From: an archaeon | GTDB lineage: Archaea; Nanobdellota; Nanobdellia; Pacearchaeales; GW2011-AR1 | Direction: 5' to 3' | Length of the DNA: 64,000 nt | Assembly: GCA_043821945.1 (NCBI GenBank) | Contig: JBDRCH010000002.1 | Span: 141 to 64,140, forward strand | Shown here: in pieces, positions 49,024 to 64,000 of the stretch | Layout of the letters: each line of letters begins with the position of its first letter | How positions within the stretch are numbered: the first letter of the stretch is position 1 | Notes under the pieces: generated by a model | The model's input: the letters and a program-made list of their open reading frames with translations, nothing else | Database searches by the model: none | Told to the model about the DNA's origin: nothing | Translations under genes and position numbers: made by a program

Positions 49024-49137
49024 AGCCCCATAGTTCAGTGGTCAAGAATACTAGCCTTTGGCGCAAAATGCACGCATCTTGGGTTCATCGCTTTGCGAAG
49101 AAAGCTAGGGACCCAGGTTCGAATCCTGGTGGGGCTA
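49024..49137 (+). tRNA. tRNA-Gln(UUG) with a 41-nt canonical BHB intron (49062..49102)
   Basis: Acceptor AGCCCCA/TGGGGCT (A1:U72), D arm GTTC/GAAT, anticodon stem CTAGC/GCTAG, loop CT-TTG-G...A, T arm CCAGG-TTCGAAT-CCTGG. Intron forms helix-bulge(GGC)-4 bp-bulge(AAA)-helix. No encoded CCA. Confidence 0.8.
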
Positions 49138-59984: not shown

Positions 59985-60260
59985 ATGCCAAGACCATGTA
60001 TTAGAAGAAAAGTTAGAGGGAAACCTTGTGCAAATTATTTTAAACCAGCTGGAGCGAGATTAAAAAATTTAGATGAAATTGTGTTAACTCTTGCTGAATT
60101 TGAAGCAATTCGTCTTGTTGATTTAGATGAAATAGAACAAGGAGAAGCAGGAAAGATGATGGGAATTTCTCAGCCGACTTTTTCTCGATTGTTGAAGAGT
60201 GCTAGAAAGAAAATTTCTGAATCAATTATTAAAGGAAAAGCAATTAGGATTGAGAGTTAA
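59985..60260 (+). CDS. DUF134 (UPF0251) predicted DNA-binding protein
   Basis: MPRPCIRRKV...YFKPAG...LTLAEFEAIRLVDLDEIEQGEAGKMMGISQPTFSRLLKSARKKI is the typical DUF134 HTH layout. Confidence 0.75.
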   Translation: MPRPCIRRKVRGKPCANYFKPAGARLKNLDEIVLTLAEFEAIRLVDLDEIEQGEAGKMMGISQPTFSRLLKSARKKISESIIKGKAIRIES

Positions 60261-60290: not shown

Positions 60291-60488
60291 ATGAATAATG
60301 TAAGTAGAACAATAACTGGGATAAGTATGATTGTAATTGGTTTATCTCTAGTGATAGCTTCATTTTTTTGGTTTGTTCTTTTGATTTATGGAATACCTAT
60401 TTTTGTTATTGGAATTTTTATTTTTTTAAATAAAAAAGAAGATGTTATTGAAGAAATAAATATGAAAGGGGGTAAGAAGAATGAGTGA
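60291..60488 (+). CDS. Small two-TM membrane protein
   Basis: 65 aa. Overlaps the next gene by 8 nt. Confidence 0.4.
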   Translation: MNNVSRTITGISMIVIGLSLVIASFFWFVLLIYGIPIFVIGIFIFLNKKEDVIEEINMKGGKKNE

Positions 60489-60807
60489 GGTAATTGTAAC
60501 AACGAGTAATGAAGTTCCTGGAATGAAAGTTGTAAAAGTTTTAGGGGTTGTTAGAGGAAGCACTGTTAGGGCAAGAAATATCGGAAGAGATATTGGTGCT
60601 GGTTTTAAGAATCTTGTTGGAGGAGAGATAAAAACTTATACTGACATGACTGCTCAATCGAGAGATGAGGCCTTTAACAGAATGATTAATTCTGCGATTG
60701 AGATTGGTGCTGATGCTGTGATAGGAATGAGATTTTCAACTTCAATGGTAATGCAGGGTGCTTCAGAAATGTTAGCTTATGGAACTGCTGTTAAATTAGG
60801 AAAGTGA
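60481..60807 (+). CDS. YbjQ/UPF0145 family protein
   Basis: 108 aa. VTTSNEVPG...VLGVVRG...GGEIKTY...R.EAF.RM...A.EIGADAVIGMRF. Confidence 0.8.
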   Translation: MSEVIVTTSNEVPGMKVVKVLGVVRGSTVRARNIGRDIGAGFKNLVGGEIKTYTDMTAQSRDEAFNRMINSAIEIGADAVIGMRFSTSMVMQGASEMLAYGTAVKLGK

Positions 60808-60840
60808 TTCTTGTGAATCTTTTATTTTTTATCTGTTTAT

Positions 60841-60858
60841 ACATACATAATAAGTAAT
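60841..60858. repeat. 18-nt direct repeat, copy 1 (acatacataataagtaat)
   Basis: Identical to 60893..60910, which runs into the start codon of the giant ORF. Confidence 0.8.
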
Positions 60859-60892
60859 TATTATAATTATCGGAAGTTTTATAATACTTATT

Positions 60893-60910
60893 ACATACAT
60901 AATAAGTAAT
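60893..60910. repeat. 18-nt direct repeat, copy 2, overlapping the ATG at 60908
   Basis: Same 18-mer as 60841..60858. Confidence 0.8.
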
Positions 60911-63900
60911 GGGAAGAACTCGATTAGCAAAAGCTGTAGCTGGAGAATTAAAAGAAAGAATAAAGGTTTCTGAAAAAAGAAAAAGAGAATTAATACTTTA
61001 TCTACAAAGACTAAAAGAGATCTACTCAAAAGGAAAGATTTCTTATTCAAAACATATAGAAATAATTTATTCTAAAAGAGATGGAAAAACAATTAACGAA
61101 TGGATAGAATACTATGATCAAGAGATAATATCCTGTGAACAAAAATTAAAGAAACAAAAGAAGAAGATTATCCAAAGATATATCTTGTTGGGTTTTTTTT
61201 CTATTGTTCTAATCTCTTTTTTGTTTTACATTCGTCCAACTTTAATTGGATTTGTCACACAAGAACAAGAATTTACACAATCATTAAATTTTGAATCAAA
61301 TCAATCAACAATCTATGAATGGTTGCTTGAAAATCAAGGGACTTTATTTTCTGTGAAATTATCTGGACTAATAGAAGGAAGTGGAGAAGTTAAAATATAT
61401 CTGGATGATCTATTGATTTTAGATAGCTCTAAAATAAAAAAAATAAAAGGAATTACAGGACAGATTGTTGATGAAGAAAATAAAGGAACTTCTGATTTTT
61501 TTAAAAAGTTTTTTGGTTTTTTTAAAATTGTTGGTAGAGTTGTTGGAGAAACAGAAGTGAAAATCAATGAATCTTTTGATGTAAAAGAAGAGACTAATGA
61601 ATCATATTCAGACATAAACGAGGAGATTCTAGAAGATTCGAGTCCTTCCCAAGAATCTCCTCTCTCTGAAAAAGAAGAACCTCTAAGAGAGATTGAAATA
61701 AGAGAATTTAGTGGTTTATGTGAAGAGACTTGTGATCTTTCTATATTTAATTTAAATAAATCTTCATATTTACTGAGAATAGAAATCTCAAATTCAAAAT
61801 TAATATTGAATGAAATAAAATACAAAACCCTCCCTGAAATAATAACAGAAGATATAACTAAAATTAGAGTAGATGAAGAGGTAACTGAAATCATAACTAA
61901 AAGAAATGCAACCGAAATCACAACAAGAGAAGATATAAGTGAAATCATAGCAGAAGAAAATGTAATAATTAAAACTCAACAATATCCAGCAGTTATTGGG
62001 CAACCTGTGAAGTGGAAAAAGAATGTTGAATTGTTAGAACAGGGAATTGTAAGAGTTAAAGTTCCAAAACAAGCTGAAAATATAACTGTGAATAAACTTT
62101 CAAATTCAGAAATAAAAGAAGAAGCTCCAGAAGATTCGAGTCCTTCCTTGGAGCCTTCTTCTTCTGAAAAACAAATATCAAATTTTAAAATAACTGGGAA
62201 AATTATTTCTAATGAGAGGAAAAGTTCTTTTTTTGATTTTTTCAAAAATCTTTTTTCAAAAATAACTGGAAGAGCAGTTGATATTGAAGATACAGAAGAA
62301 TTTAAAGAAATTATTATTGAAGATAATGCAAAAAATTATGAAATTGAATATGAAACCCCTGCACCTTATGCAATTGAAGAATTGACTGAAATAGGTAAAA
62401 GAGTAAAAATTGTTGGTCCAGAGTATGTTCATTATGAAAATGTTTTGTCATTTACTGAATTAAGTGAGGATCTGAATATTGATGATTCTTCTCGTGTGAA
62501 AATTTATTGGGTTGAGAATGAGAGTTATATTCCAATTCAGAATATTGAAGACAGAGATTCAAATGGGATTTATGATTATATTGAATGGATTGCTCCTGTT
62601 TTAAGCAATCAGACTTTTGAAATAGGGATAGTTATAATTAATGCAGAACATCTTAACCCAGGGAGAAAATTTATTGAAAATATTTATGATTATGTCAAAG
62701 AGGTGGATAATTTAACTTATACTATTCCAAAAAATAATTATGTAAGAGCATATTTTGAAAAAGATTTGATTTCTGGAAATGTTATAGATATCTATGTTCA
62801 CGGTACAGAACAAGCAACAATAGAAGTTTATGAAAAGGATTCTGACTTTGTTGTGGGAAAAATAGAAAATATAACAACTGGGATATATTATATTGAATTA
62901 AATCACACTGAATATCAATCAGTATTTGACTTGAAATCTATTGGAGGGGATGTTGTTTACGATTATATTCATGATGCCTCTAGTATTACTGAAAATGGTT
63001 TTGGCCCTTTTGCACAAACTCCAATAAATATAGGACAGGAAACAACAGTTAATCTTCAGGTTACCACAACAGGAAGATGGAGTGGAACTATTTTTTTAGA
63101 AACAACAGCAGATTCTCAAATAACAACTTCTTGTGGAAGCAATCAAGTAAATTTAACTGGTTGTAGTATTACTGCTGGCTGTAGTTGTGCAGCAGATTAT
63201 ACAGTTTCATGCACTAACATAAATGCTGCAATGACAATAACATGGACAGTTAGGGGATGTACTTTAGGAGCATCTACTTATAGAGGAGGGTGGACAGGGG
63301 ATCAAAGCGGAAATGGTGCGATAACTGCGAATTTGCAAGTTAAAGCACCAGATTTTACTTATCCTACATTTTCTTCTTTTACAGAAACTCCTGCAGATTC
63401 ACCAATATATTCTCAAGGAGCGACATATGAATTTAACACAACTATTGCAGACACAAATGGAACAGTATGGATACAATTTGATGGGAGTAATCGTACTGCA
63501 ACTAATTTGTCAACAGATATTTATAATTGGACAAAAAGAGATCTATCAGCAGGAGTTCATTCTTATAATTGGGGTGCTTATGGAAGTGGAACAGACCATA
63601 ATCTCAATACGAGTTTAATTTATGATTATACTATTAACCAAGCAGTTCCTCAAGGTTCAATCTCAGGAATTTCTCCTATAGAATATCCTGCTTTAGGAAA
63701 TGTTGAAGGAAGTGAAAGTAACATGGGAGATGATAATGTCGGTTATGGTTTGTTCAGGGATGGAGCAAGTGTAACAAATCCAGATAATACAATTATTTTT
63801 GGGGCGGGAACTTATAATTATATTTATAATGCAACTGCTGGAACAAATTACACTACTAATTCAAGCATAGGAGTATTCACTTTGATAGTGAACAAAAATT

Positions 63901-64000
63901 CTTCATTAGTTTTGGATTTAAGTGCTAGCACTCCAATAGAATATGGGGATACAACAGATTTTACTGGTTCAGGTTGTCCATCTGAATTATCTTGTTCATT
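60908..64000 (+). CDS. Giant membrane-anchored surface protein, 5' partial (continues past the window end); absent from the ORF track
   Basis: Hand-translated codon by codon from ATG 60908 to the last base with no stop (over 1030 codons). N-terminal basic coiled region, TM RYILLGFFSIVLISFLFYI, repeated modules, and a Cys- and sequon-rich distal part. Confidence 0.75.

What the first reader, a model, noticed from the sequence alone, without database searches (positions are those of the whole stretch)
60908..64000. Giant surface-protein ORF missing from the supplied ORF track; listed ORFs in this region are shadows (three antisense, one out-of-frame same-strand)
The frame starting at ATG 60908 is open to the last base of the window (over 1030 codons by manual translation), so a stop-delimited ORF finder drops it. 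The track shows only 60829..61050(-), 61334..61948(-), 61800..62003(-), 61976..62245(-) and 63427..63618(+), which all lie inside or against this frame. The protein has a basic cytoplasmic N-terminus and one TM anchor (RYILLGFFSIVLISFLFYI). Two related modules lie about 166 aa apart: ITGQIVD...SDFFKKFFGFFKIVGRVVGE...EDSSPSQESP and ITGKIIS...SSFFDFFKNLFSKITGRAVD, the latter preceded by EDSSPSLEPS. They are marked by a 19-nt identical DNA repeat at 61630-61648 and 62128-62146. The distal region is rich in Cys and N-x-S/T sequons. This is a likely adhesin or cell-envelope giant protein.
Basis: seen in the sequence. Interest (0 to 1): 0.6.

Follow-up and report, generated by a model that had tools for sequence, protein, structure and literature searches.

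The report
Giant surface protein with DNA-binding tail
The open frame is a real gene for a 1,617-residue glycosylated surface protein of a tiny DPANN archaeon; it ends, on the next contig, in two DNA-binding modules that probably control the gene's own promoter from the membrane, a design not found in the papers searched.

Summary
ATG 60909 opens a frame that runs off the window and the contig. Its codon usage matches the genome mean. The five listed ORFs score as shadows.

The only end-overlap in the assembly (66 nt, in frame) joins contig C2 to C3 and gives a 1,617-aa protein. Three relatives align over its full length at 41-42% identity.

Inferred layout:
- a cytoplasmic helical N-domain (aa 1-90) and TM1
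- about 1,300 aa of Ig-like domains, with N-x-S/T sequons enriched 2.3-fold
- an unusually short second hydrophobic segment followed by a polybasic cluster
- a strongly conserved tandem sigma-70-region-4-type HTH tail

Two identical 19-bp repeats bracket the TATA box. They occur nowhere else in the genome, and four relatives keep them, three at the same 52-nt spacing and one at 54 nt.

In other Nanoarchaeota the tandem HTH is a small soluble protein. Its gene sits directly upstream of genes whose products start with the same N-domain (21 of 21 strong hits adjacent or fused).

Best reading: a membrane-tethered, self-regulating surface sensor or adhesin, laid out like a fused sigma/anti-sigma pair. 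DNA binding and tail topology are inferred, not shown.

The parts
60840..60858 (+). Distal operator-like repeat TACATACATAATAAGTAAT, upstream of the TATA box (-69..-51 from the ATG)
   Evidence: An exact 19-mer occurs twice in the 490-kb genome, both times here, with no other copy at up to 3 mismatches. It is conserved at the same position in four relatives' giant-gene promoters, while the sequence further upstream is not.
60878..60885 (+). TATA-box-like TTTATAAT, 24-31 nt upstream of the ATG. There is no Shine-Dalgarno sequence, so the mRNA is probably leaderless.
   Evidence: Read from the sequence. The TTTATAA block is conserved between the two repeats in all five aligned promoters. The transcription start is inferred, not mapped.
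60892..60910 (+). Proximal operator-like repeat, identical to the distal one and 52 nt from it. Its last two bases are the first two of the start codon.
   Evidence: The spacing is 52 nt in the L016, G146 and G338 loci and 54 nt in G020. In each genome the two copies share the same lineage-specific variant.
60909..64000 (+). Window part (aa 1-1030) of the giant gene. The ORF continues through the 66-nt C2/C3 overlap to a stop at C3:1794, for 1,617 aa in all.
   Evidence: the only end-overlap in the assembly, and a unique sequence. Full-length relatives P0004, P0005 and P0006 align at 41-42% identity over 100% of the joined protein.
60909..61178 (+). Conserved cytoplasmic N-domain (aa 1-90), a lysine-rich helical hairpin with no known family
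   Evidence: AF2 gives helices 2-40, 46-53 and 62-107 at pLDDT 83-92. There is no Pfam or PDB match. With profile A6, 21 of 21 strong hits in other genomes are adjacent to, or fused with, a tandem-HTH of this family.
61179..61232 (+). TM1 signal anchor (aa 91-108, YILLGFFSIVLISFLFYI), preceded by KLKKQKKKIIQR, which predicts N-in topology
   Evidence: Sequence. AF2 helix 62-107 runs through it. The positive-inside argument is an inference.
61266..61832 (+). First beta-sandwich domain (aa 120-172 plus 264-308, including CEETC), split by disordered linker 1 (aa 181-261; 61449-61691). Linker 1 carries ITGQIV, SDFFKKFFGFFKIVGRVVGE and EDSSPSQESP.
   Evidence: AF2 strands and pLDDT. In G155 the same domain is an uninterrupted separate 149-aa protein.
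61602..61676 (+). Copy 1 of the 75-nt direct repeat (EDSSPS region, linker 1)
62100..62174 (+). Copy 2 of the 75-nt direct repeat (EDSSPS region, linker 2), 76% identical with a 19-nt identical core
62103..62294 (+). Disordered linker 2 (aa 399-462) with EDSSPSLEPS, KITGKIIS and SSFFDFFKNLFSKITGRAVD. The ITG...FF...ITGxA pattern is in the family consensus.
   Evidence: pLDDT below 50. Family consensus. The same F-x-D-[WF]-F-K-K-[VI]-T-G motif follows the signal peptide of the downstream paralog in three genomes.
62301..62978 (+). Best-conserved ectodomain block of the 'head' (aa 465-690, YEIEYETPAPY...IEVYE...FDLK), all-beta
   Evidence: 28 of 32 homologs cover it. It holds many of the invariant columns in the alignments. 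pLDDT is mostly 53-89. There is no Pfam family. Foldseek finds only generic Ig/MG-domain arrays.
63006..64000 (+). Start of the variable middle cassette (aa ~700-1150, Cys- and sequon-rich Ig-like repeats), shared only with the closest relatives
   Evidence: Only 8-11 of 32 homologs cover aa 701-1150. Other members carry LamG, beta-helix, Big_13 or MAM domains here. pLDDT is low.
61334..61948 (-). Largest of the shadow ORFs (204 aa antisense). The others are 60829-61050(-), 61800-62003(-), 61976-62245(-) and 63427-63618(+).
   Evidence: It scores 0.223 bits/codon against 0.422 for the giant frame over the same span. The other four score -0.39 to 0.24.

Best explanation
The frame is the 5' two-thirds of one intact gene of a Pacearchaeota-type DPANN archaeon. 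It encodes a 1,617-aa membrane protein.

Shown:
- It is coding.
- It belongs to a large family in which a constant 'head' (N-domain, TM1, aa 110-700) and a constant 'tail module' (two Ig-like domains, a short hydrophobic segment, a polybasic cluster, a tandem HTH) frame a variable middle cassette.
- The tail is a sigma-70-region-4-type HTH pair.
- The gene's promoter carries two identical, conserved 19-bp repeats around the TATA box.
- In relatives where the HTH is a separate soluble protein, its gene directly precedes a gene whose product starts with the same N-domain.

Inferred:
- Both ends of the protein are cytoplasmic and the glycosylated ectodomain forms a giant loop outside the cell.
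- The tail binds the two repeats. The proximal one covers the probable transcription start, so the likely effect is negative autoregulation that ties synthesis to the number of molecules already in the membrane.
- The N-domain is the tail's conserved partner and holds or modulates it, as an anti-sigma domain holds sigma region 4. Events at the variable ectodomain, such as contact with a host cell or surface, shedding or clustering, could then change expression of the operon.
- Whether the tail acts while tethered or after cleavage is open.
For: Coding and join:
- Codon score 0.416 against a genome mean of 0.409.
- The only contig-end overlap in the assembly is 66 nt, in frame and unique.
- P0004, P0005 and P0006 align end to end with the joined protein.

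Family architecture:
- BLASTP coverage per 50-aa bin is 20-31 of 32 homologs over aa 1-250, dips to 17 at aa 251-300, is 20-29 over aa 301-700, 8-11 over aa 701-1150, and 22-29 over aa 1151-1617.

Tail:
- Pfam Sigma70_r4_2 scores 27.0 bits against a cut-off of 25.7 on our tail alone, and matches 15 of 15 tails with a best E of 3.9e-11.
- 19 of 22 full proteins match.
- AF2 gives two three-helix units at pLDDT 81-90.
- Tail column identity is 55% against 15-25% for whole-protein alignments.

Topology:
- Sequons observed/expected are 1613/721 in ectodomains, 24/25.8 in tails and 8/6.7 in N-domains across 22 homologs.
- Stand-alone homologs have no signal peptide or TM.
- A polybasic cluster follows the hydrophobic segment in all 26 aligned sequences.

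Cis sites:
- The 19-mer occurs twice, only here.
- The 12-mer core is expected 0.6 times and is seen twice, both here.
- The sites sit at the same positions in four other giant promoters, 52 nt apart in three of them and 54 nt in G020, and the two copies co-vary within each genome.
- The same core lies upstream of stand-alone HTH genes in distant genomes.

Partner:
- All 21 N-domain hits with E <= 2e-8 in 32 genomes are next to a tandem-HTH gene (17, usually overlapping it) or fused with one (4).
- The minimal partner is a 116-aa protein made of N-domain plus TM only.
Against: - The second membrane crossing is doubtful. Only 8-14 hydrophobic residues (8-12 in most) follow the conserved W-x-I-R/K. 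AF2 models WTIRI as the last beta-strand of the Ig domain and predicts no helix there. The secreted paralogs end exactly at that strand. Other membrane anchors in the same operon are about 19-21 residues long.
- No binding of tail to DNA, or of tail to N-domain, was tested.
- About half of the stand-alone HTH genes I inspected are followed by other kinds of membrane protein, so the N-domain is not the only partner.
- The join rests on a 66-nt overlap inside an Ig-like repeat region, and extra repeats could have been collapsed there. Read mapping was unavailable.
- The transcription start is not mapped.
Confidence: 0.6

Rival explanations
1. The protein is a plain structural surface protein or adhesin with a passenger regulator. 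The giant does not signal. The HTH is the operon's ordinary autoregulator that became fused to the end of the first gene. It works as a soluble factor after routine cleavage or internal initiation, and neither the ectodomain nor the N-domain influences it.
For: In most of the phylum the HTH is a free ~160-220-aa protein. The same operator core precedes those free genes. G224 has both a free copy and a fused copy at one locus. The paralogs end where the giant reads on, which suggests the fusion arose by loss of a stop.
Against: The fusion has persisted across many diverged lineages, with the tail always at the extreme C-terminus of proteins from about 300 to 5,900 aa. The hydrophobic-plus-polybasic junction is itself conserved. 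The invariable pairing of the N-domain with the HTH (21 of 21) is unexplained if the membrane protein is irrelevant to the regulator.
Confidence: 0.17
2. The tail is extracellular. There is no second membrane crossing, and the polybasic cluster and HTH pair sit at the distal tip of the surface protein. There they bind extracellular DNA or polyanionic host surfaces, much as ComEA binds DNA outside bacteria.
For: The hydrophobic segment is too short for a normal TM helix, and AF2 does not model one. These organisms probably scavenge nucleotides (Castelle et al. 2021, PMC8204110, abstract).
Against: Sequon enrichment stops at the junction: tails show 24 observed against 25.8 expected, while ectodomains show 2.2-fold enrichment. 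The tail's K/E/I/L-rich composition matches the cytoplasmic N-domain, not the ectodomain. Free homologs have no export signal. Conserved, co-varying sites at the gene's own promoter argue for an intracellular DNA target.
Confidence: 0.07
3. The join is an assembly artefact. C2 and C3 are not neighbours, or repeats are missing between them, so the window's ORF ends differently and the HTH tail belongs to another gene.
For: The break lies within Ig-like repeats. P0006 lacks the repeat unit that spans the junction. No reads could be laid.
Against: This is the only end-overlap among the 14 contigs. It is 66 nt, in frame and unique in the genome. The head on C2 and the tail module on C3 are each single-copy in the genome, apart from the short secreted paralog. 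They co-occur in one polypeptide in most relatives.
Confidence: 0.05

Closest known systems
Transmembrane transcription regulators (TTRs): ToxR, TcpP and CadC in bacteria, ArnR/ArnR1 in Sulfolobus (survey: Demey et al. 2023, PMC10269533)
   Same: One polypeptide combines a DNA-binding HTH on the cytoplasmic side, membrane anchoring and an extracytoplasmic part. Regulation from the membrane is possible because there is no nucleus.
   Different: The classical cases (from my own knowledge) are small proteins with an N-terminal DNA-binding domain and one TM. Here the HTH pair is C-terminal, behind a ~1,300-aa glycosylated Ig-domain loop held by two anchors. The second anchor is abnormally short. 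A further conserved cytoplasmic N-domain is present. The apparent target is the protein's own promoter. The survey's text does not mention DPANN or sigma-type domains.
ECF sigma / anti-sigma pairs (e.g. SigW-RsiW, FecI-FecR) with regulated intramembrane proteolysis
   Same: A region-4-type HTH is present. In the split relatives the regulator gene comes first and overlaps a gene for a membrane protein with a ~90-aa cytoplasmic N-domain, one TM and an outside domain. A site-2 protease homolog exists in the genome.
   Different: There is no sigma region 2 and no bacterial RNA polymerase, so this is not a sigma factor. The N-domain matches no anti-sigma family. In this lineage the two partners are one polypeptide. 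No proteolysis is shown.
'Sigma-70' protein families reported in DPANN (fam00359; Castelle et al. 2021, PMC8204110)
   Same: These are probably the same genes. That paper reports sigma-70-classified families, mainly in Woesearchaeota, found no anti-sigma factor and called the control mechanism unclear.
   Different: Identity with fam00359 could not be checked, because the term is absent from the supplements held. Here the proteins are shown to be region-4-only tandem HTHs tied to, or fused with, giant surface-protein genes.
Membrane-tethered transcription factors of eukaryotes (Notch, SREBP, ATF6)
   Same: A large extracellular or luminal part and a transcription-factor part lie in one membrane protein. 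SREBP also has a hairpin topology with both ends on the cytoplasmic side (from my own knowledge).
   Different: There is no sequence or fold relationship, and release by cleavage is not shown here.
Giant surface proteins of DPANN episymbionts (e.g. SPEARE proteins of Nanohaloarchaeum antarcticus; from my own knowledge)
   Same: Very large, variable, multi-domain surface proteins in tiny-genome archaea, thought to mediate host contact.
   Different: To my knowledge those carry no cytoplasmic HTH tail and no conserved N-domain or operator system. No homology was tested.

Membership tests
Pfam PF08281 Sigma70_r4_2 (region-4-type HTH domain) | Score at or above the curated gathering cut-off (25.7 bits) | tested here: met
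   The tail alone scores 27.0 bits, E 3.4e-6, and 15 of 15 family tails match with a best E of 3.9e-11. On the 597-aa piece the score is 22.6 bits, below the cut-off. 19 of 22 full-length relatives match.
Sigma-70 family sigma factor | Region 2 (core-binding and -10 recognition) together with region 4, in an organism with a bacterial RNA polymerase | tested here: not met
   No Sigma70_r2 hit in any Pfam or NCBIfam scan. The NCBIfam SigX4 match covers only region 4 and scores 22 bits against a cut-off of 323. The genome is archaeal, as shown by Gins51 and a 114-nt tRNA that probably carries an intron.
Transmembrane transcription regulator (as defined by Demey et al. 2023) | A predicted DNA-binding domain and at least one TM region in one protein | tested here: met
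   TM1 is at aa 91-108. The HTH pair is shown. This holds only if the C2/C3 join is right.
Transmembrane transcription regulator | The DNA-binding domain is cytoplasmic and regulates a promoter | tested here: inconclusive
   For: the sequon test, soluble free homologs and conserved promoter repeats. Against: the very short second hydrophobic segment.
ECF sigma / anti-sigma module | The regulator gene is followed by, and often overlaps, a gene for a membrane protein with a cytoplasmic N-terminal domain, one TM and an outside domain | tested here: met
   This applies to the split relatives. All 21 strong N-domain hits are adjacent (17) or fused (4).
ECF sigma / anti-sigma module | Anti-sigma domain fold or sequence family (ASD, zf-HC2, RskA) in the N-domain | tested here: not met
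   There are no Pfam hits beyond coiled-coil noise and no PDB sequence hit. AF2 shows a long helical hairpin, not a four-helix ASD.
Archaeosortase-type C-terminal sorting signal (PGF-CTERM, PACE-CTERM) | Motif, TM helix and basic cluster at the extreme C-terminus, with a match to the NCBIfam models | tested here: not met
   The hydrophobic-plus-basic junction resembles such a signal, but 186 conserved residues follow it. There is no NCBIfam hit.
   TM1 signal anchor. Beta-sandwich arrays have only generic Ig/FN3/MG matches. Sequons are 55 observed against 23.4 expected.
   No ligand-binding family was detected in this member. Relatives carry LamG, MAM or beta-helix cassettes in the variable slot.
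Substrate of regulated intramembrane proteolysis | A site-2 protease is present and the TM segment is cleaved | tested here: inconclusive
   A Peptidase_M50 homolog exists on contig C11, but the same search found one in all 14 control genomes. Cleavage is not testable.

The most novel reading that the evidence does not exclude
Nanoarchaeota (Pace- and Woesearchaeota) have an archaeal counterpart of sigma/anti-sigma signalling built from different parts. A tandem region-4-type HTH protein is held at the membrane by a dedicated ~90-aa cytoplasmic N-domain of giant, hypervariable surface proteins. It is let go, or repositioned, when the ectodomain meets its target, for instance a host cell. It then acts on a conserved pair of 18-19-bp sites at the operon promoter. 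In the Pacearchaeota lineage of this window the two partners are fused into one polypeptide that senses outside and regulates its own gene inside. This would also explain the 'sigma-70 genes without anti-sigma factors' reported in DPANN.
Probability: 0.3. Interest if true: 0.8.

Novelty: new variant of a known kind. Interest (0 to 1): 0.66.

Why it matters
DPANN archaea have tiny genomes, very few recognisable regulators, and depend on contact with other cells. How they sense that contact is unknown.

This family is large. An exhaustive search found about 2,000 clusters at 50% identity, and the tail is present in 156 of 301 sampled genomes of the phylum. It links the most variable and largest surface proteins of these organisms to a conserved DNA-binding module and a conserved promoter element.

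If the model holds, it gives a directly testable outside-in signalling route in uncultivated episymbionts, with a defined protein fragment and a defined 19-bp site. It would also reinterpret genes that have been read as bacterial sigma factors in archaea.

In practice, ORF finders that drop frames open at contig ends, and assemblies that break inside such genes, hide this family.

Tried and rejected
- Pfam and NCBIfam on the window part gave nothing.
- PDB sequence-profile searches with the whole tail-module alignment, the tail alone and the N-domain gave no significant hit. The best was an archaeal HTH regulator, 8hno, at E 0.11.
- Foldseek on both AF2 models returned only generic Ig/FN3/macroglobulin-domain arrays with TM-scores of 0.1-0.2, so no specific function can be assigned to the ectodomain. 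The third fold search was not used because it could only re-rank those hits.
- Wider regulon: the operator core at up to 1 mismatch occurs 6 times in the genome against 19 expected by chance, so there is no sign of other targets.
- Paralogs of the head, N-domain or tail elsewhere in this genome: none, apart from the secreted paralog of the last two Ig domains.
- Upstream DUF134 HTH gene as a partner: rejected, because it is not conserved next to the ortholog.
- Archaeosortase-type sorting signal: rejected.
- True sigma factor: rejected, because there is no region 2.
- Link to fam00359 of Castelle et al.: could not be verified.
- Loci from other genomes were not copied to the Python box, so neighbourhoods were compared by coordinates.
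Full report
**1. The observation**

- Translation from 60908 is full of stops, while translation from 60909 is clean.
- The identical 19-nt core of the internal repeat lies at 61631-61649 and 62129-62147. It sits within a 75-nt repeat that is 76% identical.

I trained a codon log-odds model on 129 long ORFs of the same genome. The giant frame scores 0.416 bits/codon, against a genome mean of 0.409 and SD of 0.091. The five listed ORFs score -0.39 to +0.24 and lose to the giant frame over every shared span.

**2. Where the gene ends**

The window is C2:141-64140 of a 490-kb, 14-contig, ~30% G+C genome. Gins51 and a 114-nt tRNA that probably carries an intron mark the genome as archaeal. The named homologs are Pacearchaeota or Nanoarchaeota.

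The frame is still open at the contig end. Contig C3 begins with a 5'-open frame of 597 aa whose first 22 residues equal the last 22 of C2. The DNA overlap is 66 nt and exact. It is the only end-overlap among all contig ends, and its sequence occurs nowhere else.

The joined ORF is 1,617 aa and stops at C3:1794. Three relatives of 1,546-1,671 aa align with it end to end at 41-42% identity. The break lies inside Ig-like repeats, so a collapsed repeat cannot be excluded.

**3. Anatomy**

| Residues | Feature | Evidence |
|---|---|---|
| 1-90 | Lys-rich helical hairpin, pLDDT 83-92, running into TM1 | |
| 91-108 | TM1 | |
| 120-172 + 264-308, 352-396, 465-690 | Beta-sandwich domains | |
| ~700-1150 | Low-confidence, Cys- and sequon-rich Ig-like repeats | |
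| 1166-1424 | Two well-modelled Ig-like domains; the last strand is WTIRI | |
| 1425-1431 | ILLVALTY, then RKRKK | |
| to 1617 | A helical stretch and two three-helix HTH units, pLDDT 81-90 | |

The first linker interrupts a domain that is uninterrupted in a relative.

On its own the tail passes the Pfam Sigma70_r4_2 cut-off (27.0 against 25.7 bits), and all 15 family tails match. No region 2 is present anywhere. Foldseek gives only generic Ig/FN3/MG arrays for the ectodomain.

**4. The family**

The word-indexed search gave 105 relatives of 900-2,800 aa. BLASTP of our protein against 32 of them shows three zones:
- a constant head, aa 1-700: 20-31 of 32 cover most 50-aa bins, with a dip to 17 at aa 251-300
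- a variable middle, aa 701-1150: 8-11 of 32 cover it, and other members carry LamG, beta-helix, Big_13 or MAM domains there
- a constant tail module, aa 1151-1617: 22-29 of 32 cover it

An exhaustive phmmer search with the 185-aa tail found 2,004 cluster representatives at E <= 1e-3 and 1,444 at E <= 1e-10. Their lengths run from 157 to 5,919 aa. In nearly all of the long proteins listed the tail is C-terminal.

**5. Topology**

The second hydrophobic segment is the weak point.
- Across 26 sequences, only 8-14 hydrophobic residues (8-12 in most) follow the conserved W-x-I-R/K, and then a polybasic cluster begins.
- AF2 models no helix there.
- The secreted paralogs stop exactly at that strand.

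Three results still argue for a cytoplasmic tail.
- N-x-S/T sequons are enriched 2.2-fold over composition in ectodomains (1613 observed against 721 expected). They are not enriched in tails (24 against 25.8) or in N-domains (8 against 6.7).
- Free homologs of the tail lack any signal peptide or TM.
- The apparent DNA target is intracellular (section 6).

I therefore take N-in/C-in as likely but unproven.

**6. A conserved cis element at the gene's own promoter**

The 19-mer TACATACATAATAAGTAAT occurs at 60840-60858 and at 60892-60910. It has no other copy in the genome at up to 3 mismatches. Its 12-nt core is expected 0.6 times by chance.

The two copies bracket a TATA-like TTTATAAT at 60878-60885. 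The proximal copy ends in the first two bases of the ATG, and there is no Shine-Dalgarno sequence. The mRNA is therefore probably leaderless, with the proximal site covering the transcription start.

I aligned our promoter with four relatives' giant-gene promoters, whose proteins are about 40% identical. Only the two sites and the TATA block are conserved. The spacing is 52 nt in three of the relatives and 54 nt in the fourth. The two copies within each genome share that genome's own variant. The same core also lies, usually as a pair, upstream of stand-alone HTH genes in distant genomes.

Earlier notes of this scan had proposed such sites in other genomes. The test here is independent of them. 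No wider regulon is visible.

**7. Split versions and the N-domain**

In a sample of 301 genomes of the phylum, 156 carry the tail. In most it is a separate ORF of 150-220 aa, often in several copies.

In all six such loci that I read, the HTH gene is the first gene of an operon and usually overlaps a gene for a membrane or surface protein.

I built a profile of our N-domain plus TM1 (A6) and searched 32 genomes with it. There were 21 distinct hits at E <= 2e-8. Seventeen lie immediately downstream of a tandem-HTH gene and four are in one ORF with an HTH tail. The partners range from a 116-aa protein made of N-domain plus TM only to ORFs of 9,180 and 10,022 aa.

The N-domain matches no known family.

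The gene order, the overlap and the partner's topology mirror ECF sigma/anti-sigma operons. The fusion in our lineage then reads as a Rosetta-stone link between the two. Physical interaction is inferred only.

**8. Operon**

Downstream on C3, three genes follow:
- A 319-aa secreted paralog, 68% identical to aa ~1164-1420. It carries a signal peptide followed by GFSDWFKKVTGQAS.
- A 185-aa protein with a C-terminal TM.
- A 560-aa Ig-domain protein with a C-terminal TM.

The same order is found next to P0006 and in G224. The giant-plus-paralog pair recurs in at least nine relatives.

**9. Comparison and novelty**

The protein meets the formal definition of a transmembrane transcription regulator (PMC10269533) but differs from the classical cases in every detail. 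It is not a sigma factor. Castelle et al. (PMC8204110) reported sigma-70-classified families in DPANN and found no anti-sigma factor. Those are probably these genes, but I could not verify it. Three literature searches found no description of the fusion, the operator or the N-domain pairing.

I rate it a new variant of a known kind. Within this scan the family has already been met in five other genomes.

**10. Verdict**

| Claim | Confidence |
|---|---|
| Real gene, and a member of the family | ~0.95 |
| Contig join | ~0.9 |
| Cytoplasmic tail acting on the two promoter repeats | ~0.6 |
| Anti-sigma-like role of the N-domain | ~0.3 |

Noticed in passing
L001 (contig C3) 1819-2778; also L016 14653-15603 and L020 5647-6663(-): The ~320-aa secreted paralog of the giant's last two Ig domains starts, in three distant genomes, with a signal peptide followed by a conserved F-(S/L)-D-(W/F/I)-F-(K/R/N)-K-(V/I)-T-G motif. 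It ends exactly at the W-x-I-x strand where the giant continues into its hydrophobic segment. The same motif occurs internally in the giant's linker 2. Its role is unknown; it could be a docking peptide or a processing site.
   Followed up: partly
whole genome, e.g. C3:3411-5093, C12, C14: At least six other predicted secreted proteins of this genome have an x-T-G-x-A-(V/I) motif right after the signal-peptide hydrophobic core (for example EITGEAVTGKAT, AVTGNAVN, SMTGSAIK). This looks like a lineage-specific feature of exported proteins.
   Followed up: no
contig ends of C5, C7, C10 and C14: Several other contigs end or begin inside long open frames with surface-protein composition: C5 1061 aa 3'-open, C7 603 aa, C10 696 and 307 aa, C14 411 aa. 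Giant surface genes seem to be the main cause of assembly breaks in this genome, and ORF lists that need a stop codon miss them.
   Followed up: no
G313:C28:8238 onward and G255:C2:147424 onward: In other Nanoarchaeota, the partner genes that start with the same N-domain reach open frames of 9,180 and 10,022 aa.
   Followed up: no
window 59985-60260 and 60481-60807: Just upstream lie a DUF134 protein, itself with weak sigma-70-region-4-like HTH matches, and a YbjQ-family protein. Neither is conserved next to the ortholog, so they are probably unrelated to the giant gene.
   Followed up: partly
window 49024-49137: The only Rfam hit in the window is a 114-nt tRNA match, which probably contains an intron.
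   Followed up: no
window 61334-61948 (-): The 204-aa antisense ORF has a mildly positive codon score (0.22 bits/codon). It is in the phase-locked antisense frame, a reminder that long shadow ORFs in AT-rich genomes can look weakly coding.
   Followed up: yes
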